Shown: positions 1-50,899 of the stretch, in pieces
Numbering within the stretch: position 1 is the stretch's first letter
Layout: each line of letters begins with the position of its first letter
NCBI GenBank assembly: GCA_963766935.1
Contig: CAVYBY010000012.1
Location: 20,945 to 84,944, forward strand
Direction of reading: 5' to 3'
Origin: an uncultured Actinomycetes bacterium
GTDB lineage: Bacteria > Actinomycetota > UBA4738 > HRBIN12
Length of the DNA: 64,000 nucleotides
Made by a program: the position numbers and the translations under genes
Notes under the pieces: generated by a model
What the model saw: only the letters and a program-made list of their open reading frames with translations
Database searches by the model: none
What the model was told of the DNA's origin: nothing

Positions 1-397
1 CGCTGGTACCGAGCCAAGTCCTTCACGACGGAAGGCAACCCGAGCTCGTCGACGCTCTTGATACCGTAGGGGATCACGCGAAAGACCGCGCCGAGCGCGT
101 CTCGCTGCATGAACACATTTACCCGGAATCGGGCACGCCCGGGGAGCGAGTAGGACATGTCCAGCTCGAGTTGCTGCTCGAAACGCTCGCGCAGCTTCTG
201 GGGCAGGATCGCGTAGATCATCGTTTGCAGCGCCTTCGGAGTGAGCAGCGGGTACTCCTCGACGCGGCGGAGGTCACCGTTGATCCGGACCGTCGGAGCC
301 GCTCCGGCCGTCAGATGCAAGTCCGATCCATCCAGTTCGAGCAGTGCGCCGAGCAGTTCGGGAATCGGAATCTGAATGTCCTGGTCTTCTTGTGCGA
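1..397 (-). CDS. pilT: Type IV pilus retraction ATPase PilT, N-terminal 132 codons (the 3' part of the gene lies beyond coordinate 1)
   Basis: Minus-strand ATG at 397 to 395. Manual translation gives MSTVAQEDQDIQIPIPELLGALLELDGSDLHLTAGAAPTVRINGDLRRVEEYPLLTPKALQTMIYAILPQKLRERFEQQLELDMSYSLPGRARFRVNVFMQRDALGAVFRVIP, which matches the conserved PilT N-domain. It is absent from the ORF track because it runs off the window edge. Confidence 0.8.
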
Positions 398-409
398 CCG
401 TGCTCATCG

Positions 410-2095
410 TCACTTCACCACCCTCGCCACTTCCTCGATCGATGTAAGTCCCGAACGAACCTTGACGAGGCCGTCCTCGCGAAGCGTCACCATGCCCTGC
501 GCGATCGCGGCGGTCTTGATCGTCTCCGACGACGCGCGTTCGACGGTGAGCCGTTCGATCTCCTCGTTCACCTGCATGACCTCGTAGAGGCCGATCCGGC
601 CGCGATAGCCCGTGTTGGAGCACGCCTGGCACCCGGCCGCACGGAACAGGCTCTTGATCTCGGCCCGGTCCGCGTCCAGGAAGCCGGCCTCCTCGAGCTC
701 GGGGCCCTCAGGCTTGTATTCCTCCTTGCAGCGCTCGCAGAGCTTCCGCGCAAGGCGCTGGGCGACGATGCAGTCGATCGCCGACGCGACCAGGAACGTC
801 TCCACGCCCATCTCCGTGAGGCGCGTGAGCGCCGACGCGGAGTCGTTCGTGTGGAGCGAGCTGAGCACGAGGTGACCGGTAAGCGCCGCCTCGATGGCGA
901 TCGTCGCGGTCTCGGTGTCGCGGATCTCCCCGATGAGCACGATGTCGGGGTCCGCTCGCAGGATCGATCGCAGGGCCGACGCGAACGTCAGCCCGGCCTT
1001 CGGGTTGACCTGCATCTGGTTGGTCCCCGCGAGGCGGTACTCGACGGGGTCCTCGACCGTGATGATGTTCTTGTCTTCCTGGTTGAGGATCTTGAGCGTC
1101 GAGTACATCGTCGTGGACTTCCCGGAGCCCGTCGGACCCACCACGAGGATGGCGCCGTAGGGCTTGCTGAAGGACTCCGAGAACCGCTTGTAGGAAGACT
1201 GCAGGAAGCCGAGCTCCTCAAGCTTGAGCAGGCCGCTGCTCTTGTCGAGCACGCGGATCACGACCTTCTCGCCGTAGACGGTCGGAAGCGTGGCGACGCG
1301 AAGGTCCAGCTGCCGGCCTCCGACTTTCATCGAGATCCGGCCGTCCTGCGGGACGCGCTTCTCGGCGATGTTGAGGTCGGCCATGACCTTGAGACGGCTG
1401 ATCAGCCCACCCTGGATGTTCTTGGGGGCCGGCGGCATCGGCTCGTGCAGCACGCCGTCGACCCGGAAACGGATCCTGACGTTCGTCTCACCGGGCTCGA
1501 TGTGGACGTCCGAGGCACGGTCGCCGACCGCCTGCGTCATGATCGCGTTGACCAGCTTGACGATCGGGGCGTCCTCGAGCGCCGCCTCGAGCTCTTCCGT
1601 GTCGCCTTCGAGGGACTCCGCGACGACGCTCGCCAGCGCCTCGACCTGGGAGTCCATGCCGGAGAACCGCTGGATCGCCTGTTCCACGTCGCTCGCGGTG
1701 GCGACCAGGGGCTGAACCTCCCGGCCGGTGATCGTGCGGATGTCGTCGAGTGCGTAGACGTTGGTCGGATCGGACATCGCGACGAGCAACTTCCCGTCGC
1801 GCTCTCCGATCGGGAGCGCCCGGTACCGGCGCGAGAGTCCCTCGGGAAGCAGGACGGTCACCGTCGCGTCGATCGGGTACTCGGTCAGGTCCACGAACTC
1901 GAGACCGACCTGCTCGGACAGCGCGCGAACGAGGTCGGGCTCACCGATGAACCCCATGTCGATGAGGACCCGCCCGAGCGCCTTCGGCGTGCGGCGGTGC
2001 TCCTCCAGGGCGCTGTCCAGCTGCTCCTGGGTGATATGGCCGAGCTCGATGAGGATCTGGCCCAGTTGCTTCGTCTTGCGCTTGGTCGTCGTCAT
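410..2095 (-). CDS. pilB: Type IV pilus assembly ATPase PilB (GspE family)
   Basis: 561 aa. It has a T2SSE N-domain, a Walker A motif GPTGSGKST and a C-terminal CxxC...CxxC zinc motif. It sits 12 nt upstream of pilT. Confidence 0.9.
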   Translation of the reverse strand: MTTTKRKTKQLGQILIELGHITQEQLDSALEEHRRTPKALGRVLIDMGFIGEPDLVRALSEQVGLEFVDLTEYPIDATVTVLLPEGLSRRYRALPIGERDGKLLVAMSDPTNVYALDDIRTITGREVQPLVATASDVEQAIQRFSGMDSQVEALASVVAESLEGDTEELEAALEDAPIVKLVNAIMTQAVGDRASDVHIEPGETNVRIRFRVDGVLHEPMPPAPKNIQGGLISRLKVMADLNIAEKRVPQDGRISMKVGGRQLDLRVATLPTVYGEKVVIRVLDKSSGLLKLEELGFLQSSYKRFSESFSKPYGAILVVGPTGSGKSTTMYSTLKILNQEDKNIITVEDPVEYRLAGTNQMQVNPKAGLTFASALRSILRADPDIVLIGEIRDTETATIAIEAALTGHLVLSSLHTNDSASALTRLTEMGVETFLVASAIDCIVAQRLARKLCERCKEEYKPEGPELEEAGFLDADRAEIKSLFRAAGCQACSNTGYRGRIGLYEVMQVNEEIERLTVERASSETIKTAAIAQGMVTLREDGLVKVRSGLTSIEEVARVVK

Positions 2096-2135
2096 CCTGG
2101 GGACTTGGTCCCTTTCGGTCTAGGTCGGGGGGTCC

Positions 2136-2867
2136 TCACCCAGGAACTTCGTCATCGGGACGGTCCACCTGAAGCAGCCCCGTGAACTCTTTCGCGAGCA
2201 GGAACCGGTCGATCTCCGACTCGTCCCCGTCCCCCCCCTGGGGGAGCTGGGAGGGTGAGTCCATCTGCTCGGCGGATGCCAGGAGAATCTCCATCTCCGG
2301 CTCCCTCTCGGTCTGGATCTGCGGCCGGATCTCTGGCTCTGGCCGGACCTCCGGCCGGATCTCTGGCAGGATCTTTGGGGCCTGCGGAGCCTCGAGATCG
2401 AGGGCCGTCTGGCCAGGCGTGACCAGCGGGAACGCCTCATCCGGCTCCGCCGGGGGCCGATTCGGCTCGATCGGCTCGATCGGGGCCGGCGGGGGCGGCG
2501 GGGCCGCGGCGGCAGCGTGATCGGGATCCCCGGGCCCCAGGCTCACCTGGCCGCGCGACCGCTCGGCCTCGACCAGGACGTCTTCGATCCGGTCGATCAG
2601 GACACCGGGCCGCACGCCGGGGACCGCCACCGCGAAGGCCGAGTAGGGGCCCCGGTGGACAAAGGCCCAGATGGCCGTGGGGAACTCGACGACGCCCCGT
2701 TCGGACTCTCCGAGCCCCGCGAAACGGAGCCAGGCAGATTTGGCCAGGCCCTCATCCTCGTCGGGATAGCTGCCGAGAACGAAGCCGTCGCGCGACAGGA
2801 TGAGGCATCCACGAACCTCCGTGACGGAGTCCGCGATGCGCTGAGCAAACGAGGCGTAGGCGTCCAC
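2136..2867 (-). CDS. Roadblock/LC7 (MglB-like) domain protein with a C-terminal Pro/Glu-rich tandem-repeat tail
   Basis: The N-terminal ~110 aa (GCLILSRDGFVLGSYPDEDEGLAKSAWLRFAGLGE...VAVPGVRPGVLIDRIEDV) fit the roadblock/LC7 pattern. The C-terminus carries PEIRPEVRPEPEIRPQIQ repeats encoded by ~12-nt tandem DNA repeats at about 2280 to 2400. The start is GTG and no Shine-Dalgarno (SD) sequence is evident. It lies 40 nt upstream of pilB. Confidence 0.55.
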   Translation of the reverse strand: MDAYASFAQRIADSVTEVRGCLILSRDGFVLGSYPDEDEGLAKSAWLRFAGLGESERGVVEFPTAIWAFVHRGPYSAFAVAVPGVRPGVLIDRIEDVLVEAERSRGQVSLGPGDPDHAAAAAPPPPPAPIEPIEPNRPPAEPDEAFPLVTPGQTALDLEAPQAPKILPEIRPEVRPEPEIRPQIQTEREPEMEILLASAEQMDSPSQLPQGGDGDESEIDRFLLAKEFTGLLQVDRPDDEVPG

Positions 2868-2920
2868 CTACGGACAACATCGTCGGCCAACCTGCCGAGG
2901 TTGAATCCGTCAGGCCCGAA

Positions 2921-3820
2921 TCAGCGAGGTTCGCCGAGCTCGGCCAGGGCCGCGGCCGACATGGACTCCAGTGGGGGCCGTCGCCCCGTCCACAGCTCGA
3001 ACGAGAGCGCCGCCTGATGCAACAGGAGTCCGAGCCCGCCGAACCACGGCGCGCCCACGGAACGAGCCGCGACGAGGAGTGGCGTCACCACCGGCTCGTA
3101 CAGCAGATCGACGACGACCGTACCGGCGCCCAGGGGCGGCGTCGGCAGCATCTCGCCCGAAGCACCGAGCGGGGTCGCATTCACGACGAGGTCGGCGGGC
3201 TCGCGGGCGGCCGAGTCGAACGGCACCACCGAGACCTCCAGCGGCAACCCCTCGATCGCGCCGGCGAGCGCCTCGGCCCGGGCCGCGTCGCGCGCCGCAA
3301 CGACGAGGCGGGCGAGGCCGCCCCGCGCCAGTGCGAGCGCGCACGCCCGGGCGGCGCCGCCCGCGCCGAACACCAGAGCGACCCGGCCTCGCGGGTCGAA
3401 CCCCGCGTCGTCCGCGAGAAAACGCTCGAACCCGGTCACATCGGTGTTGTGACCGGCCAGCATGCCGCCGGCGACGACGATCGTGTTGGCCGCACGAAGC
3501 CGCTCCGCGTCCTCGGAGCGGGAGTCCGCGAGCCCGGCAGCCTCGGTCTTGTGCGGCATGGTCACGTTCGCGCCGGCAAAGCCAAGGCGCCGGAGCCCCT
3601 CGAGCGCCGCGCCCAGGCGGCCGGGCTCGACCGGCAGCGGCACGTACGCCCAATCCATTCCCATGTCTCGGAATGCCGCGTTGTGGATCGCCGGGGACAA
3701 GCTGTGCTCGACCGGCCAGCCGATGATCCCGACGAGACGGGTGGTCCCGCGGATCCAACGCGCGGAGGCCCAGGACGCGGACCCAAAGGGTGCGGACGAG
3801 CTCTCAGCCGAGGCAGTCAT
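2921..3820 (-). CDS. aroE: Shikimate dehydrogenase
   Basis: VGIIGWPVEHSLSPAIHNAAF and NVTMPHK motifs. The only in-frame start is the ATG at 3820, which overlaps the mltG 3' end by 17 nt. Confidence 0.85.
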   Translation of the reverse strand: MTASAESSSAPFGSASWASARWIRGTTRLVGIIGWPVEHSLSPAIHNAAFRDMGMDWAYVPLPVEPGRLGAALEGLRRLGFAGANVTMPHKTEAAGLADSRSEDAERLRAANTIVVAGGMLAGHNTDVTGFERFLADDAGFDPRGRVALVFGAGGAARACALALARGGLARLVVAARDAARAEALAGAIEGLPLEVSVVPFDSAAREPADLVVNATPLGASGEMLPTPPLGAGTVVVDLLYEPVVTPLLVAARSVGAPWFGGLGLLLHQAALSFELWTGRRPPLESMSAAALAELGEPR

Positions 3821-31589: not shown

Positions 31590-32215
31590 GCCGCCCGCTC
31601 CTCGCCGGCCACCTGGCCGGTTCGCACCAATGCGGTAAGCGCGACCAGCACGGCGGTCGCCCACACGGCGGGACCGATGCGGTCGAAGGCGAGGCCGGCC
31701 GTGACCAGACCGTAGCGAATCCCGCGGGTCACATGGCTCTCCTCCACCGAGTAGTCCAGTGCCGCGCCGCGAGCGCGCACATACGCCGAGAGAAAGCTGG
31801 CGCAGAGCGCCACGATCGCGCCCGCGGCCACCTCGGGACGTCCCTCGCGCGCAACCCACGCGACGGCGCCGAGAACCCCGGCGTCCCAGGCACGGTCGAG
31901 CAGGTCGTCGAGCATCCGGTCGACGGGTCCGCCCGAACCGTGGTTGGAGCGGTGCCCCCCCGTGAGCAGCAGGGCCGCGGACGCGCCGGCCGCCAGCGCC
32001 GCCCAGTGCGGCGCCCGCGCCACCACCAGCCAGGTGGATCCGGCGGCCAATGTGCCCCCGGCGAGCAGGCAGCCGCGCGTGATCGCCGTACCGGGCGGCT
32101 GTCGCTGAAAGCGGACCATCGAGACGGGGGCGAGCCTAGCACCCGTCCCCCGCGCGCCTCCTTCGGCGAGGTTCCGTAGAATCGCGCCCATCGCGGCGCC
32201 CGTCGCAGCCGTCAT
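31586..32215 (-). CDS. pgsA: CDP-alcohol phosphatidyltransferase family protein (PgsA1/PIP-synthase position) with an atypical catalytic motif
   Basis: 209 aa multi-TM protein with the distal G-x3-D-x3-D part of the motif (GGPVDRMLDDLLDRAWD). The proximal D-G-x2-A-R reads LTGGHR, so the first Asp is absent. Rv2612c-like synteny. The start is uncertain (internal M at +9 and +33). Confidence 0.6.
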   Translation of the reverse strand: MTAATGAAMGAILRNLAEGGARGTGARLAPVSMVRFQRQPPGTAITRGCLLAGGTLAAGSTWLVVARAPHWAALAAGASAALLLTGGHRSNHGSGGPVDRMLDDLLDRAWDAGVLGAVAWVAREGRPEVAAGAIVALCASFLSAYVRARGAALDYSVEESHVTRGIRYGLVTAGLAFDRIGPAVWATAVLVALTALVRTGQVAGEERAA

Positions 32216-32234
32216 CCTGCAGAAGGAGAGCGAG

Positions 32235-34325
32235 TTGGACGTCTACGAGGCGAAGGACATCCGCAACGTCTTGCTCATGGGACATGGCGGCTCGGGCAAG
32301 ACGACGTTGCTCGAAGCCATGTTGTTCACGAGCGGCCAGACGACCCGAATGGGCACGGTCGAGGACGGCACCACGGTCTCGGACCACGACCCCGACGAGC
32401 AGCGCAAGGGCATCTCGGTCTCGCTTGCCGGCGCGCCGGTGATCTGGAAAGGCGTCAAGATCAACGTCCTCGACGCGCCGGGGACCGCGGACTTCGTCGG
32501 CGACGTTCGATCCGCCATCCGGGCCGTCGACGCCGTCATCCTCGTGGTCTCGGCCGTCGACGGCGTCGAGGTGCAGACGGAGTACGCCTGGGAGCTCGCG
32601 GTCGAAGAGGGCCTGCCGCGGGCGATCTTCGTGAACAAGCTCGACCGGGAGCGCGCCGACTTCCAGTCGACGCTCGACCAGCTGGTCGCGGCGTTCGGGA
32701 ACCAAGTCGCCCCGTTCGAGCTGCCGATCGGTCAGGAGAGCGAGTTCGAAGGCGTCGCCGACCTGTTGCACGAGAAAGCCGACCGCTATCCGGACGGCCC
32801 GCACGCGGAGGAGTCGGAGTGGCCGCAGGATCTGCATGCCATCGCCGACCCGTTCCGCGAGAAGCTCATGGAGGCGGTCGCCGAATCCGACGACGCGCTG
32901 ATCGAGATCTATCTGGAGGAGGGAACCCTTCCGGAGGCCGACATCGTCCGCGGCGCCAAGGAAGGCTTTGCCAACGCGAGGCTCGCCCCCGTCATCGTCG
33001 GTTCCGCCTCCCGCGCCGTCGCGGTCGACCGCTTGCTCGACTTCGTCGTCGAGGAGTTCCCGTCCCCGCTCGACCGGGCCCCGGTCCGGGTCGCGACAGC
33101 GGACGGAACCGAGTCGGAGCGGGCGAGCGAGGCCGACGGACCGCTCACCGCGTTCGTCTTCAAGACCGTGTCCGACCCGTTCGTCGGACACATCACGATG
33201 TTCCGCGTGTTCAGCGGGCGGGTTCGCCCCGACTCGAGCATCCACGACGCGACCCAGGGAACCGACGAGCGGATCGGCCAGCTGTTCGTCCTGGTCGGCA
33301 AGGAGCACGAGAGCGTCCCCGAGGTCGCCGCCGGCGACATCGGCGCGGTCGCCAAGCTCCAGCACGCGCACACCGGCGACACGTTCTCCACAAAGGACGC
33401 CCCCGTGCAGCTGACCACCGTGGAGCTGCCCCCGCCGCTCCTCGCGTACGCCATCACGCCGAAGGCCAAGGGGGACGAGGACAAGCTGGCCACTGGGCTC
33501 GCCCGGCTCCGGGAGGAGGACCCCACCTTCCACGTCAGCCGGAACGAGGAGACGCACGAGACCGTCATCTCCGGGATGGGCGAGGCCCACCTCGAAGTGA
33601 ACATCGAACGCCTGAAGCGGAAGTTCGGCGTCGATGTCGACGCCAAGGCCGCCAAGATCGCCTACCGCGAGACCATCCGGGGAAAGGGTCCCGGCATCGG
33701 ACGGCATGTGAAGCAGACCGGCGGACACGGTCAGTACGCGGTCTGCAACATCGAGATCGAGCCGGTGCCGCGTGGAGACGGGTTCGTCTTCGAGGACAAG
33801 ATCTTCGGCGGCGCGATCCCGCAGAGCTTCATCCCGAGCGTCGAGAAGGGGGTCGTCCGGACGATGTCCGAGGGCGTCATCAGCGGCAACCCGATGGTCG
33901 ACGTGAAGGTGACGCTCCTCGACGGAAAGTTCCACACGGTGGACTCCTCCGACATGGCCTTTCAGATCGCGGGGTCGCTCGCGCTGAAGGACGCGGTGGA
34001 GCGCGCGGGTATCGCCCTGCTCGAACCGGTCGTCCAACTCTCCGTGGTGGTGCCCGACGCCTTCACCGGCGACGTCATGGGGGACCTCAACTCAAAGCGC
34101 GGGAAGATCCAGGGCATGGAGCAGCTGGGCGCCGGCAAGCAGCAGATCAACGCCCTGGTTCCCCAGGCGGAGGTCGCGCGCTACGTCATCGACCTCCGCT
34201 CGATCACCGGCGGACGCGGCGCCTTCACGATGGCCTTCTCCCACTACGAGGAGCTGCCGCAGCAGCTCGCGCAGAAGGTCATCGACGAGCACCAGAAAGC
34301 CCGTGAAGACGCGACGAAGAAATAG
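32235..34325 (+). CDS. Elongation factor G family GTPase paralog (EF-G2/FusA2-like)
   Basis: 696 aa with all five EF-G domains. The G motifs are GHGGSGKTT, DAPG and NKLD. It uses a TTG start with an AAGGAG SD 6 nt upstream, and sits divergent from pgsA with only a 19-nt spacer. Confidence 0.85.
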   Translation: MDVYEAKDIRNVLLMGHGGSGKTTLLEAMLFTSGQTTRMGTVEDGTTVSDHDPDEQRKGISVSLAGAPVIWKGVKINVLDAPGTADFVGDVRSAIRAVDAVILVVSAVDGVEVQTEYAWELAVEEGLPRAIFVNKLDRERADFQSTLDQLVAAFGNQVAPFELPIGQESEFEGVADLLHEKADRYPDGPHAEESEWPQDLHAIADPFREKLMEAVAESDDALIEIYLEEGTLPEADIVRGAKEGFANARLAPVIVGSASRAVAVDRLLDFVVEEFPSPLDRAPVRVATADGTESERASEADGPLTAFVFKTVSDPFVGHITMFRVFSGRVRPDSSIHDATQGTDERIGQLFVLVGKEHESVPEVAAGDIGAVAKLQHAHTGDTFSTKDAPVQLTTVELPPPLLAYAITPKAKGDEDKLATGLARLREEDPTFHVSRNEETHETVISGMGEAHLEVNIERLKRKFGVDVDAKAAKIAYRETIRGKGPGIGRHVKQTGGHGQYAVCNIEIEPVPRGDGFVFEDKIFGGAIPQSFIPSVEKGVVRTMSEGVISGNPMVDVKVTLLDGKFHTVDSSDMAFQIAGSLALKDAVERAGIALLEPVVQLSVVVPDAFTGDVMGDLNSKRGKIQGMEQLGAGKQQINALVPQAEVARYVIDLRSITGGRGAFTMAFSHYEELPQQLAQKVIDEHQKAREDATKK

Positions 34326-41357: not shown

Positions 41358-41569
41358 CTCTGGCCTCCCTTCGTCGGGGGTGTGGCCCCACACTTCACGA
41401 GATCAAGGGTCGGCGCAACCCCGCGCGCCTGTCAGGTTGCCGACACGATCGATGGCGACCACCTCGTTCCTCGCTCGGCCGGATGAGGCCGAGACTGCCG
41501 AGGGGGATATAGGCGCTCTGATGACCGAGCGCGCAGAGTGTCGATGACCAGGGCAAACACCGATTGTCG

Positions 41570-41641
41570 TGGGCGCGGCAGGTTTCGAACCTGCGACCTC
41601 TTGCGTGTGAAGCAAGCGCTCTCCCGCTGAGCTACGCGCCC
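41570..41641 (-). tRNA. tRNA-Val (anticodon CAC)
   Basis: A 72-nt cloverleaf folded by hand: GGGCGCG acceptor, GCTC/GAGC D-stem, anticodon loop TTCACAC, T-loop TTCGAAA. CCA is not encoded. Confidence 0.85.
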
Positions 41642-41706
41642 GAGATTCCGGAGTCTAGCGAACGCCCGAGGCAGATCGGACGGGGAAGGAGCCGGAGGAA
41701 AGCGCA

Positions 41707-41752
41707 AGGGAAAAAGAATGACGGCGGCACGTGCCCGCGTCGTGCCGCCGTC
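41707..41752 (-). terminator. Putative intrinsic terminator between tRNA-Val(GAC) and tRNA-Val(CAC)
   Basis: A perfect 12-bp GC-rich inverted repeat (gacggcggcacg / cgtgccgccgtc) with a 9-nt loop, followed on the minus strand by ATTCTTTTTCCC. Confidence 0.5.
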
Positions 41753-41975
41753 GCCGCCGAGCCGAGTGGGCCCGGACGAAAGCGACAGAGTCTGGCACGG
41801 AAAGGCGAGGCCACGCAATACGCCGACGGTCCCTCGCTGGGGCTGACTCGAAGCGCAACGAGGGGCCCCGCGGTGGGCCAGGTTGAGACGGCTCCCGATC
41901 GACCCCACAAGACCGCATTCGCCATCCGCACGAGGAACCGAAGGGCGGCCGGGGCGGCCTCGACCCGGCGTCGCG

Positions 41976-42050
41976 TGGTGGGCGCTAGAGGATTTGAACC
42001 TCTGACCTCTTCCGTGTCAGGGAAGCGCTCTCCCCCTGAGCTAAGCGCCC
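41976..42050 (-). tRNA. tRNA-Val (anticodon GAC)
   Basis: 75 nt including the encoded CCA, with anticodon loop CTGACAC and T-loop TTCAAAT. Confidence 0.85.
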
Positions 42051-42096
42051 TTGTGACCGATCGTAGCCGATGGGGTGAGTGCGACGACCGAACTCG

Positions 42097-42168
42097 AGGC
42101 GGGGACCGGAATCGAACCGGTGTGCGGGGCTTTGCAGGCCCCTGCCTAAACCACTCGGCCACCCCGCC
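42097..42168 (-). tRNA. tRNA-Cys (anticodon GCA)
   Basis: 72 nt: GGCGGGG acceptor, anticodon loop CTGCAAA, T-loop TTCGATT, discriminator U. Confidence 0.85.
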
Positions 42169-42230
42169 GGATCTGGGTCAGTCTACGAAGAAGACAAACA
42201 GACGGCCGCCCGCAGGCGGCCGTCTCACCG

Positions 42231-42302
42231 AGCGGACGACGGGATTCGAACCCGCGACCCCCACCTTGGCAAGGTGGTGCTCTACCACTGAGCCACGTCC
42301 GC
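42231..42302 (-). tRNA. tRNA-Gly (anticodon GCC)
   Basis: 72 nt with anticodon loop TTGCCAA. The Gly-Cys-Val order matches the mycobacterial glyV-cysU-valU cluster. Confidence 0.85.
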
Positions 42303-48732: not shown

Positions 48733-50091
48733 TCAGCCGTCGGCGGCGGCGTGGTCCGGTGAGACCCGGGTCGCGAACGGCCGGATGGCGGCCAGCTCCC
48801 TCAGGCCCACCCGAGCCCGGACTCGCGTGCCCGCTGGCTCGGCCTCGGCCGATTCGACCTCCGCCCGGTCGTAGAGCATCGCGACGAGATCCCCGCGCGC
48901 CCACGGGATCAGCGCTTCGATCGCGACGGGCGGGTTCGGGATCGCCCCAAGGACGGCCCGGAGCAGACCCTCGGTTCCCTCCCCGGAGAGTCCCGAGACG
49001 GAGATGGACCCCGGGTGTCTCCGGGCGAGGCGCGCGCGCTCGGGACCCCCGACCTGATCCACCTTGTTGAGCGCGAGCACCTCGGGCACGTCGCCGGCGC
49101 CGATCTCGCCGAGGACCCGACGGACCGCCTCGACCTGCTCCTCCAGCTGTGGCGACGAGGCATCCGCGACGTGGAGCACGAGGTCCGAGCGCGTCACCTC
49201 GTCGAGGGTGGACCGAAACGCCTCCACCAGATCGTGCGGGAGCTTGCCGACGAAACCGACCGTGTCCGAGATGACCACGCGCCGGCCGCCCGGAAGGGTC
49301 AGCCGTCGGGCGGTGGGATCGAGGGTGGCGAAGAGCTGGTCGGCGACGACCACCTCCGAGCTCGTGAGCTGGTTCATCAACGTCGACTTCCCGGCGTTCG
49401 TGTAGCCGGCGATCGCGACCTGGGGCACGCCGGAGCTCTGGCGCCGAGCGTTCTTCAGATCGCGGGACTTCGAGAGCGAGTCGATGTCGCGGCGAAGGCG
49501 CGAGATCCGCCTGCGGATGTGCTGGCGGTCGACTTCCATCTTGGTCTCGCCCGGCCCACGGGTTCCGATGCCGCCGCCCAGCCGGCTCATGGCCTCGCCC
49601 CACCCACGAAGCCGCGGAAGCAAGTAGTTGAGCTGCGCCAGCTCCACCTGCGCCTTGCCCTCCCGGCTGCGTGCGTGCAGCGCGAAGATGTCCAGGATCA
49701 GAGCTGTCCGGTCGACCACCTTCACGTTGAGCCGCTCTTCCAGCGACCGAAGCTGTCCGGGCGTCAGCTCCTCGTCGAGAATCACGGCCTGCGCGCCGGT
49801 CCGGTGGATCTCGCGGTGCAGCTCGTCCACCTTGCCGCGGCCGACCCAGTACTGGGCGTCGGGCTCCGATCGGCTCTGCACGACCCGGGCGACCGGCTCG
49901 GCGCCGGCGGAGTCGGCCAACGCCGCGAGCTCGTCGAGGTCCTCCTCGCGAATCCCCGGGCCGATCCCGACGAGAACGGCGCGCTCACGCACCATCGGCC
50001 GCCACGTGGCCGCGAGCGGCGACTCGAGGGTCCGCGGAGCAGGCGCTCGGTGCTCCGCCACGTGATCAGGCCATGGCCGAGCCGTGCTCAC
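48733..50091 (-). CDS. hflX: GTPase HflX
   Basis: G domain (GYTNAGKST, DTVGF, NKVD) plus N-terminal HflX domain. The alternative ATG at 49995 avoids a 26-nt overlap with dapD. Confidence 0.9.
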   Translation of the reverse strand: MSTARPWPDHVAEHRAPAPRTLESPLAATWRPMVRERAVLVGIGPGIREEDLDELAALADSAGAEPVARVVQSRSEPDAQYWVGRGKVDELHREIHRTGAQAVILDEELTPGQLRSLEERLNVKVVDRTALILDIFALHARSREGKAQVELAQLNYLLPRLRGWGEAMSRLGGGIGTRGPGETKMEVDRQHIRRRISRLRRDIDSLSKSRDLKNARRQSSGVPQVAIAGYTNAGKSTLMNQLTSSEVVVADQLFATLDPTARRLTLPGGRRVVISDTVGFVGKLPHDLVEAFRSTLDEVTRSDLVLHVADASSPQLEEQVEAVRRVLGEIGAGDVPEVLALNKVDQVGGPERARLARRHPGSISVSGLSGEGTEGLLRAVLGAIPNPPVAIEALIPWARGDLVAMLYDRAEVESAEAEPAGTRVRARVGLRELAAIRPFATRVSPDHAAADG

Positions 50092-50899
50092 GCAGCAGCT
50101 CGTTCAGCCGGAGCTTCTCGTCGGTCCCCTCGCTCCGGTAGGCGATGATCAGGCCGCATGGGAGGCCGTAGCTGCCGGCCGGGAACTCGCGTGGCCGGGT
50201 GCCCGGCACCACGACGGCTCCGGCGGGTACCTCGCCGCGGACCTCGACGGGAGTCGTCCCCGTCACGTCGATCACCGGCGTGCTGGCGGTCAGGACCGTT
50301 CCCGCCCCCAGCACGGCCCGGGCCCCGACGCGGACGCCCTCGACGACGACGCAGCGCGAACCCAGGAAGCAGCCGTCCTCCACGATCACGGGCGCGGCCT
50401 GCACCGGCTCGAGCACGCCGCCGATCCCCACGCCGCCGGACAGATGCACGTCCGCACCGACCTGCGCGCACGAGCCGACCGTGGCCCATGTGTCGACGAG
50501 CGTGCCCGGGCCGATCCAGGCCCCGACGTTCACGTAGCTGGGCATCAACACGACGCCCCGTGAGAGGAAGGACCCGAAGCGCGCGGCCGCCGGCGGCACC
50601 ACGCGCACGCCGAGCCCCGCGTACCCGTGCTTGAGCGGCAGCCGGTCGTGGAACTCGAGCGGGCCGGCCTGCGTCGTCTCCAGAGCCCGAACGCGGAAGT
50701 ACAGGAGCACCGCTTCCTTGAGCCACGCGTGCACGACCCAGCCGTCCCCGTCCGGCTCGGCGACGCGAACCTGTCCCCGGTCGAGCAGACCGATCGTTTC
50801 CTCCACCGCTTCGGCATCGATCGACGATGCCCCGCCGGAGCTCTCCGCGCCGGCCCACGCGGCCTCGATCCGCCCCGCCAGCTCGGCGTGAGACGTCAT
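50066..50899 (-). CDS. dapD: 2,3,4,5-tetrahydropyridine-2,6-dicarboxylate N-succinyltransferase
   Basis: 277 aa from the ATG at 50899 with left-handed beta-helix hexapeptide repeats. It makes an ATGA overlap with the dapC stop. Confidence 0.85.
   Translation of the reverse strand: MTSHAELAGRIEAAWAGAESSGGASSIDAEAVEETIGLLDRGQVRVAEPDGDGWVVHAWLKEAVLLYFRVRALETTQAGPLEFHDRLPLKHGYAGLGVRVVPPAAARFGSFLSRGVVLMPSYVNVGAWIGPGTLVDTWATVGSCAQVGADVHLSGGVGIGGVLEPVQAAPVIVEDGCFLGSRCVVVEGVRVGARAVLGAGTVLTASTPVIDVTGTTPVEVRGEVPAGAVVVPGTRPREFPAGSYGLPCGLIIAYRSEGTDEKLRLNELLREHGSAMA

What the first reader, a model, noticed from the sequence alone, without database searches (positions are those of the whole stretch)
1..2867. 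A roadblock/LC7 (MglB-like) protein with a proline-rich repeat tail is encoded immediately upstream of the pilB-pilT motor ATPases
The 243-aa product of 2136 to 2867 has a clear roadblock/LC7 fold signature in its first ~110 residues. It then has an acidic Pro-rich tail of PEIRPE-type repeats, encoded by about 12-nt tandem DNA repeats. It ends 40 nt before pilB, which ends 12 nt before pilT. In Myxococcus, the roadblock protein MglB is the GAP of the small GTPase MglA that sets the polarity of type IV pilus-driven motility. Actinobacterial roadblock proteins normally sit in conservon (Cvn) operons with a Ras-like GTPase. Here there is no GTPase gene in the window; the roadblock gene alone is physically coupled to the extension and retraction ATPases. 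That suggests a direct regulatory or scaffolding role at the pilus motor. It starts with GTG and has no SD, so its expression may be low or leaderless.
Basis: inference. Interest (0 to 1): 0.5.

Follow-up and report, generated by a model that had tools for sequence, protein, structure and literature searches.

The report
Roadblock-fold gene heading pilus operon
A small uncharacterised gene sits directly in front of the type IV pilus motor genes in a large group of uncultured Actinomycetota; it encodes a roadblock-fold domain, a floppy acidic linker and a nearly invariant C-terminal peptide, which suggests a lineage-specific pilus accessory protein that works without a partner GTPase nearby.

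Summary
The ORF at 2136..2867 (-) is a real, conserved gene.

- **Tail:** the Pro-rich repeat tail is real but specific to this genome. Across the family the linker varies from 60 to 224 aa.
E-V-D-R-V-L-L-A-K-E-F-S-G-L-L-Q followed by acidic residues.
- **Family:** about 311 clusters at 50% identity, in at least 173 species-level genomes, all from uncultured bacteria.
- **Linkage to pilB:** the gene lies directly upstream of pilB-pilT-pilC in essentially every locus, whether sampling starts from this gene or from PilB. This holds even where the upstream neighbour aroE is missing.
- **GTPases:** no small GTPase gene lies within 6-10 kb in more than 80 loci.
- **Promoter-like motif:** TCAAG-N17-CGATG lies 10-27 nt before the start codon in 78 of 80 loci. 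This suggests the gene heads the pilus operon on a leaderless or short-leader transcript.

Direct action on PilB or PilT is still inference. I rate it a new variant of a known kind, of moderate interest.

The parts
2878..2904 (-). Promoter-like bipartite motif TCAAC-N17-CGATG; family consensus TCAAG-N17-CGAT[G/A]. It ends 11 nt before the GTG start codon.
   Evidence: It is the only match in the 64-kb window on either strand (0.52 expected). The motif is present in 78 of 80 relatives, with a 17-nt spacer in 76. It resembles the flagellar/WhiG sigma consensus, but only loosely (PMC8325347).
2136..2867 (-). Gene 'X': 243-aa protein, GTG start, stop codon at 2136-2138.
   Evidence: ORF list and sequence. 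262 homologues at E<=1e-3. 311 clusters at 50% identity.
2538..2867 (-). N-terminal roadblock/LC7-fold domain, residues 1-110, with secondary structure alpha-beta-beta-alpha-beta-beta-beta-alpha.
2223..2537 (-). Disordered acidic Pro/Ala/Glu-rich linker, residues 111-215. It is not conserved in sequence or length.
   Evidence: pLDDT is mostly below 65. Composition and net charge -15. Family linker length is 60-224 aa. Alignment.
2337..2378 (.). 12-nt tandem repeat, 3.5 copies, encoding PEIRPEVRPEPEIRPQ.
   Evidence: TRF score 56, 83% matches. It is absent even from the 78%-identical relative P0002.
2462..2483 (.). 9-nt tandem repeat, 2.4 copies, encoding PIEPIEP.
   Evidence: TRF score 44.
2169..2213 (-). 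Conserved C-terminal peptide I219-Q233 (IDRFLLAKEFTGLLQ), flanked by acidic residues. Predicted to be a short helix.
   Evidence: Nearly invariant columns E218-Q233 plus D239 and E240. The strict motif occurs in 68 of 80 loci, with variants or frameshifts in the rest. It persists in the most divergent members. In all fetched DNA it occurs only at the C-termini of X proteins. Helix at residues 221-228 in the AF2 model.
2108..2126 (-). Conserved intergenic motif GACCTAGACCGAAAGGGAC between the X stop codon and the pilB start codon. Role unexplained.
   Evidence: The ACCTA[G/A/T] core is present in 60 of 79 loci. Alignment. No conserved hairpin was predicted.
410..2095 (-). pilB, the extension ATPase, with an N-terminal MshEN c-di-GMP-binding domain.
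   Evidence: Pfam T2SSE 1.3e-139 and MshEN 7.9e-24. TIGR02538 655 bits (cutoff 675.65) and NF053729 66.9 bits against a cutoff of 38.
1..407 (-). pilT, the retraction ATPase; its N-terminal 135 aa, running off the window.
   Evidence: TIGR01420 3.7e-31. Translation.

Best explanation
Gene X is the first gene of the type IVa pilus operon in a broad clade of uncultured Actinomycetota. It encodes a dedicated cytoplasmic accessory protein of the pilus machine.

Shown:
- The protein has three parts: a roadblock/LC7-fold N-domain, a disordered acidic linker of free length and sequence, and a nearly invariant C-terminal peptide that probably forms a helix.
- The gene is inseparable from pilB-pilT-pilC across the whole family.
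- A conserved promoter-like motif sits just upstream, there is no terminator before pilB, and no small-GTPase gene is nearby.

Inferred:
- The roadblock domain dimerises, as other roadblock proteins do, and serves as a docking platform.
- The C-terminal peptide, held on a flexible tether, binds a component of the cytoplasmic pilus motor. The most likely target is the hexameric ATPase PilB encoded 40 nt downstream; PilT or PilM are alternatives.
- In this way X recruits, positions or gates the motor as a protein-protein adaptor rather than as a GTPase-activating protein, as the orphan roadblock protein MglC does in Myxococcus.
- Transcription probably starts a few bases before, or at, the start codon, which would explain the missing Shine-Dalgarno sequence.
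For: **Fold**
- AF2 pLDDT >90 for residues 1-110.
- Foldseek against PDB puts roadblock proteins at the top, including Streptomyces roadblock 3kye, MglC, LAMTOR and MglB.
- 87 of 113 members give sub-threshold Pfam Robl_LC7 matches.

**Architecture**
- Alignments A1 and A2 show the three-part layout.
- The C-terminal motif is kept across the family, including divergent members. It is exclusive to X in the fetched DNA.

**Linkage to pilB**
- pilB lies directly downstream in 79 of 80 genome loci, median gap 43 nt.
- In metagenome loci found with PilB, X is present in 58 of 61 by its N-domain and in the other 3 by its C-terminal motif.
- Divergent members remain adjacent to pilB where aroE is absent.
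- The downstream cluster is pilT, pilC, pilins, the PilD peptidase and PilM.

**Operon head**
- The motif TCAAG-N17-CGATG occurs in 78 of 80 loci, 10-27 nt before the start codon, and only once in the window.
- There is no terminator-like site between X and pilB.
- Loci with a short motif-to-start distance lack a Shine-Dalgarno sequence, and loci with a longer distance mostly have one.

**No GTPase nearby:**

**Precedents**
- An orphan roadblock protein acting as an adaptor: MglC (PMC4719450).
- Sigma-WhiG promoters driving actinobacterial pilus clusters (PMC8325347).
Against:
- The structural neighbours with known partners (MglB, CvnB, LAMTOR and Rag C-terminal domains) work with small GTPases. 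A GTPase encoded elsewhere in these genomes could not be excluded.
- The family profile does not reach canonical roadblock proteins by sequence, so homology rests on fold and weak Pfam signals.
- The promoter-like motif misses the WhiG consensus criterion of Schumacher et al. In the window it has four mismatches and a spacer 1 nt longer.
- No transcript data exist.
- A conserved motif between X and pilB could mark separate regulation of pilB.
Confidence: 0.55

Rival explanations
1. X is a true MglB- or CvnB-type partner (GAP or regulator) of a small Ras-like GTPase encoded elsewhere in the genome. It controls pilus polarity or activity through that GTPase, not by touching the ATPases.
For: - The best structural matches are GTPase-associated roadblock proteins: CvnB5, MglB and Rag C-terminal domains.
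- In prokaryotes 421 of 749 MglB homologues are coupled to an MglA-type GTPase, and orphans often arise by gene loss or relocation (PMC4316618).
- MglB also uses a C-terminal helix on a linker; this point is from my own knowledge and was not checked here.
Against: - No small-GTPase motif was found within about 6 kb in 80 loci or among called genes within 10 kb.
- The tight, universal linkage is to pilB.
- The family is sharply separated from canonical Robl_LC7 by sequence: 282 of 311 hits are below 1e-10, and no PDB roadblock protein is reached.
Confidence: 0.2
2. X is a localisation or scaffold factor that ties the pilus machine to another cell structure, such as the pole, the division site or the cytoskeleton. 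It would use the roadblock dimer on one side and the tethered peptide on the other, without regulating ATPase activity.
For: - The layout of folded domain, long variable linker and conserved terminal peptide is typical of tethering proteins.
- Roadblock proteins such as LAMTOR and MglC act as scaffolds.
Against: Nothing in the loci points to a non-pilus partner. The gene is always inside the pilus operon next to the ATPase genes.
Confidence: 0.15
3. The N-domain is a small-ligand or poly-proline sensor of the related GAF or profilin fold class, not a roadblock-type protein-docking module.
Against: - Pfam Robl_LC7 is the only recurrent family signal.
- The proline run is not conserved in relatives.
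Confidence: 0.06
4. X is a passenger gene with no role in pili, kept between aroE and pilB only by synteny.
For: The whole alaS-ruvX-mltG-aroE-X-pilB region is syntenic.
Against: - X stays glued to pilB when aroE is absent.
- The gap to pilB is short, with no terminator-like site in the window's gap.
- The promoter-like motif precedes X, not pilB.
Confidence: 0.03

Closest known systems
MglC of Myxococcus xanthus (orphan roadblock paralogue of MglB; PDB 7ct3/7cy1)
   Different: - MglC has no long disordered linker and no conserved C-terminal peptide.
- MglC is not encoded next to pilB and works within the MglA/MglB/RomR polarity module.
- Sequence identity is only 9-15%.
MglB (GAP of MglA; Thermus and Myxococcus; PDB 1j3w, 3t1s, 6hjm)
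   Different: - No mglA-like gene lies nearby.
- The Pfam Robl_LC7 match is below threshold.
- X has an added tail of about 130 aa.
- GAP activity is untested.
CvnB of actinobacterial conservons (PDB 3leq CvnB5, 3kye)
   Different: [quoted passage not shown] None of these flank X; its neighbours are aroE or mltG and pilB.
PilB-binding regulators of Gram-negative bacteria (for example the PilZ-FimX complex of Xanthomonas, PMC8389850)
   Same: These are small cytoplasmic proteins that control the extension ATPase. The proposed role of X is analogous.
   Different: The folds are unrelated, and no homology was found. For X the interaction with PilB is only inferred.
Sigma-WhiG / flagellar-type promoters of actinobacterial pilus clusters (Rubrobacter, Actinoplanes; PMC8325347)
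   Same: An asymmetric bipartite motif with CGAT in the -10 element and T-AA in the -35 element, lying in front of pilus operons.
   Different: - The consensus here is TCAAG-N17-CGATG.
- The window copy has four mismatches to TAAA / GCCGATAA and a spacer 1 nt longer.
- Neither the sigma factor nor the start site is known for these genomes.

Membership tests
Roadblock/LC7 superfamily (fold level) | Alpha-beta-beta-alpha-beta-beta-beta(-alpha) fold, superimposable on solved roadblock structures | tested here: met
   [not shown]
Roadblock/LC7 superfamily (Pfam PF03259) | Score at or above the Pfam gathering threshold (23 bits) | tested here: not met
   The score is 16 bits, E=0.01, over residues 13-38 only. 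87 of 113 homologues give sub-threshold matches, best E=3.9e-4. One member carries JGI's automatic name 'Roadblock/LC7/MglB family'.
Roadblock/LC7 superfamily | Homodimer or heterodimer through the edge strand and helix alpha2 | not testable with these tools
   No multimer prediction was available.
MglB-type GAP | Gene coupled to an MglA-family small GTPase, within four genes (criterion of PMC4316618) | tested here: not met
   A G1-G3-G4 motif scan found nothing in 80 loci of about +/-6 kb. No GTPase Pfam family appears among called genes within 10 kb in four loci. In the window only an EF-G-like gene and HflX were found, 29 and 46 kb away.
MglB-type GAP | Stimulates GTP hydrolysis by its partner GTPase | not testable with these tools
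   This needs a biochemical assay.
Conservon CvnB | Encoded in a cvnA (histidine kinase)-cvnB-cvnC-cvnD (GTPase) operon | tested here: not met
   The neighbours are always mltG or aroE upstream and pilB-pilT-pilC downstream.
Type IVa pilus gene cluster component | Conserved position inside a cluster with pilB, pilT, pilC, prepilin genes, prepilin peptidase and pilM | tested here: met
   79 of 80 genome loci and 61 of 61 loci sampled from PilB with enough upstream DNA. Cluster content.
Type IVa pilus gene cluster component | Required for, or modulating, piliation or twitching | not testable with these tools
   No cultured host was identified; every named source is a MAG or a metagenome.
Sigma-WhiG/FliA-dependent promoter | -35 TAAA and -10 GCCGATAA with at most two mismatches in total (criterion of PMC8325347) | tested here: not met
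   The window site is TCAA-N16-GACGATGT, with four mismatches and a longer spacer. Five divergent loci have CCCGATAG. The resemblance is only a lead.

The most novel reading that the evidence does not exclude
X is a roadblock-domain regulator that acts directly on the hexameric secretion-type ATPases PilB and/or PilT with no small GTPase involved. That would be a bacterial counterpart of roadblock/LC7 proteins riding on the dynein ATPase. It would also be the first lineage-specific motor regulator described for type IVa pili of monoderm Actinomycetota.
Probability: 0.25. Interest if true: 0.7.

Novelty: new variant of a known kind. Interest (0 to 1): 0.55.

Why it matters
- **Pilus biology:** type IVa pili of Actinomycetota are almost unstudied; a review notes that the pili studied so far in this phylum are of the Tad type (PMC6916266). 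A gene that heads the pilus operon in every member of a large soil-dwelling clade is a strong candidate for a missing machine or control component.
- **Roadblock proteins:** this family is a clean natural case of a roadblock domain coupled to an ATPase motor instead of a small GTPase. It bears on the old proposal that the superfamily regulates NTPases in general (Koonin and Aravind 2000, cited in PMC4316618). It also bears on the function of the many orphan MglB homologues, none of which had been characterised in 2014.
- **A testable handle:** the conserved C-terminal peptide can be used directly in binding experiments.

Tried and rejected
- **NCBIfam.** No match for X.
- **afdb50 fold search.** The library was not available.
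- **The proline-rich repeats as the functional element.** Rejected: the linker is unconserved even in the 78%-identical relative.
- **An RNA structure between X and pilB.** RNAalifold predicted no pairs.
- **Rfam.** Only four tRNAs were found in the window.
- **The promoter-like motif as the pilin promoter.** It lies upstream of the first pilin gene in only 1 of 45 loci. Weaker copies lie further downstream in about 10 loci.
- **A cultured host.** All 16 members looked up are unnamed, 'hypothetical protein', or from an 'Actinomycetota bacterium' MAG.
- **Literature.** No paper links a roadblock protein to pilB in Actinobacteria. The Actinoplanes pilus paper is not held.
- **A terminator or sigma-70 promoter around X.** Nothing above chance.
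Full report
**What is in the sequence**

On the minus strand the window begins inside pilT (405..1 onward). The gene order, read 5' to 3' on that strand, is alaS, ruvX, mltG, aroE (2921..3820), ORF X (2136..2867, 243 aa, GTG start), pilB (410..2095) and pilT.

- PilB is 561 aa with MshEN and T2SSE domains. It scores 655 bits on the PilB model TIGR02538, just under that model's 675.65-bit cutoff. It passes NCBI's c-di-GMP-binding motif model (66.9 bits against a cutoff of 38).
- pilB ends 2 nt before the pilT ATG, or overlaps a GTG by 4 nt. It does not end 12 nt before pilT.
- The tail of X is 24% Pro and 13% Glu, net charge -15.
- The tail contains a 12-nt repeat of 3.5 copies at 2337-2378 and a 9-nt repeat at 2462-2483.

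**Is the N-domain a roadblock domain?**

By sequence alone the signal is weak.

- Pfam Robl_LC7 gives E=0.01 and 16 bits, below the 23-bit cutoff, over 26 residues.
- NCBIfam finds nothing.
- Family profiles do not reach any solved roadblock protein.
- However, 87 of 113 homologues give the same sub-threshold Pfam match.

Structure prediction settles the question.

- With a 113-sequence alignment, AlphaFold2 models residues 1-110 at pLDDT 83-97 as alpha-beta-beta-alpha-beta-beta-beta-alpha.
- Nearly all of the top 50 Foldseek matches against PDB are roadblock-family structures: Streptomyces roadblock 3kye, MglC, LAMTOR, MglB and Asgard roadblock proteins.

The fold claim is therefore confirmed. 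Membership of Pfam PF03259 by its own threshold is not.

**The family and its architecture**

- X has 262 homologues at E<=1e-3 in the 5.8-billion-protein collection. All are unnamed or 'hypothetical' except one with an automatic roadblock name.
- An HMM of the N-domain finds 311 clusters at 50% identity among 1.84 billion representatives, and 282 of these are below 1e-10. The family is sharply bounded and does not merge into canonical roadblock proteins.
- 173 species-representative genomes encode it. All 80 loci listed are uncultured Actinomycetota MAGs.

Alignments show three parts:

1. A conserved N-domain of about 110 aa. Invariant residues include L22, L24, S25, R26, G28, W46, W67, F78, R86 and P87.
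2. A linker of 60-224 aa rich in Ala, Pro and Glu, mostly acidic and with no conserved sequence. The one exception is a PSGKPRTSLHP-like motif just after the domain, present in 65 of 80 relatives and missing from the window protein.
3. A nearly invariant C-terminal peptide, [E/D]-[V/I]-D-[R/P]-[V/I/F]-[L/M]-L-A-[K/Q]-E-F-[S/A]-G-L-L-Q, followed by acidic residues. In more divergent members a looser core, L-[A/S]-x-E-F-x-x-L-L, remains.

In about 1.4 Mb of fetched DNA, translated in six frames, the C-terminal motif occurs 155 times, always at the end of an X protein.

**Linkage to the pilus motor**

- Among 80 genome loci found with X, pilB lies immediately downstream in 79; the other locus ends too early to show it. 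The median gap is 43 nt, and pilT follows.
- Sampling the other way, with PilB as the query against metagenomes (PilB identity 74-84%), 58 of 61 loci with at least 400 nt upstream carry the X N-domain. The other three carry the X C-terminal motif on truncated contigs.
- Six further members looked up one by one are still directly upstream of pilB; N-domain identity is 35-48% and PilB identity 55-73% where measured. In four of these loci, from three members, aroE is absent and the order is mltG-X-pilB. The association is therefore with pilB, not with the housekeeping genes upstream.
- Downstream the cluster continues with pilC, one or two prepilins, three unannotated proteins, the prepilin peptidase, an HTH protein and pilM.

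**GTPases**

- A G1-G3-G4 motif scan finds no candidate in the 80 loci.
- No GTPase family appears among called genes within 10 kb.
- In the window itself only an EF-G-like protein and HflX match.
- Whether a small GTPase is encoded elsewhere in these genomes could not be tested.

**Expression signals**

This part is new relative to the finding.

- Aligning the 100 nt upstream of X shows an asymmetric bipartite motif, TCAAG-N17-CGAT[G/A], in 78 of 80 distinct loci. The spacer is exactly 17 nt in 76 of them.
- The motif ends 10-27 nt (mode 12-15) before the start codon.
- The window copy (2904..2878, minus strand, TCAAC...CGATG) is the only match in 64 kb on both strands, where 0.52 would be expected by chance.
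- Loci with a short distance to the start codon lack a Shine-Dalgarno sequence: 4 of 69 have one. Those with 18 nt or more mostly have one: 6 of 9. This is what a promoter giving leaderless or near-leaderless transcripts would produce.
- The motif loosely resembles the flagellar/WhiG sigma consensus (TAAA / GCCGATAA). That consensus drives pilus clusters in Rubrobacter and Actinoplanes (PMC8325347). The motif here fails those authors' two-mismatch criterion, so I treat the resemblance as a lead only.
- No terminator-like site lies between X and pilB.
- A second conserved motif, GACCTAGACCGAACGGAC, lies between X and pilB in most loci. It has no predicted conserved structure and remains unexplained.

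**Interpretation**

The best-supported reading is that X is a pilus-operon-encoded accessory protein. It would consist of a roadblock platform, probably dimeric, carrying a tethered conserved peptide that docks on a cytoplasmic motor component. PilB is the most likely target. X would then work as an adaptor, like the orphan roadblock protein MglC (PMC4719450), rather than as a GAP.

- Shown: the fold, the architecture, the universal linkage to pilB, and the absence of a nearby GTPase.
- Inferred: dimerisation, the binding partner, and the effect on the motor.

The main rival is that X partners a distally encoded small GTPase. It keeps about 0.2 probability because the closest structures are GTPase partners and whole genomes could not be searched.

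**Novelty**

- Orphan MglB-like proteins are known to be numerous and were uncharacterised as of 2014 (PMC4316618).
- I found no paper linking a roadblock protein to pilB in Actinobacteria.
- The fold is known. The fusion to a tether and peptide, the strict coupling to pilB, and the lack of a coupled GTPase make this a new variant of a known kind.

Noticed in passing
window 2878-2904 (-); L001-L080 about 40 nt upstream of the X start codon: Bipartite motif TCAAG-N17-CGAT[G/A] with a fixed spacer, present in 78 of 80 relatives and unique in the window. It is promoter-like and loosely WhiG/FliA-like. Weaker copies (CTCAAG...CTGCCGA[T/C]G) lie 5.5-6.4 kb downstream of the X start, after the first pilin gene, in about 10 loci.
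   Followed up: partly
window 2108-2126 (-); X-pilB spacer in L001-L080: Conserved intergenic motif GACCTAGACCGAACGGAC between the X stop codon and the pilB start codon; the ACCTA[G/A/T] core is present in 60 of 79 loci. No conserved hairpin was predicted. Its function is unknown.
   Followed up: partly
window 1910-2068 (-), PilB residues 10-62: PilB passes NCBIfam NF053729, the MshE-type c-di-GMP-binding motif (66.9 bits against a cutoff of 38). The extension ATPase is therefore probably c-di-GMP-responsive.
   Followed up: no
relatives of X, residues about 120-135 (alignment A1 columns 170-185): A second short motif, PSGKPRTSLHP, follows the roadblock domain in 65 of 80 relatives. In the window protein it is replaced by a PPPPPAPIEPIEP stretch.
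   Followed up: partly
window 405-413: The pilB stop codon and the pilT start codon are 2 nt apart (ATG at 407), or overlap as GTGA (GTG at 413). This suggests translational coupling.
   Followed up: yes
window 32109-34322 (+) and 48736-50103 (-): Two GTPase genes are present in the window: an EF-G-like protein and HflX. Both are large GTPases of translation-factor or ribosome-associated families, not Ras-like.
   Followed up: yes
window 41569-42302 (-): A cluster of four tRNA genes: Val(cac), Val(gac), Cys(gca) and Gly(gcc).
   Followed up: no
[not shown]
   Followed up: partly
L050, L051, L052, L067, L072 and others (MFD MAGs): Several relatives appear frameshifted in the C-terminal part of X: their reading frames end in ...GQRVLGIASGGLGR in place of the conserved peptide. 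These are probably assembly errors rather than real variants.
   Followed up: no
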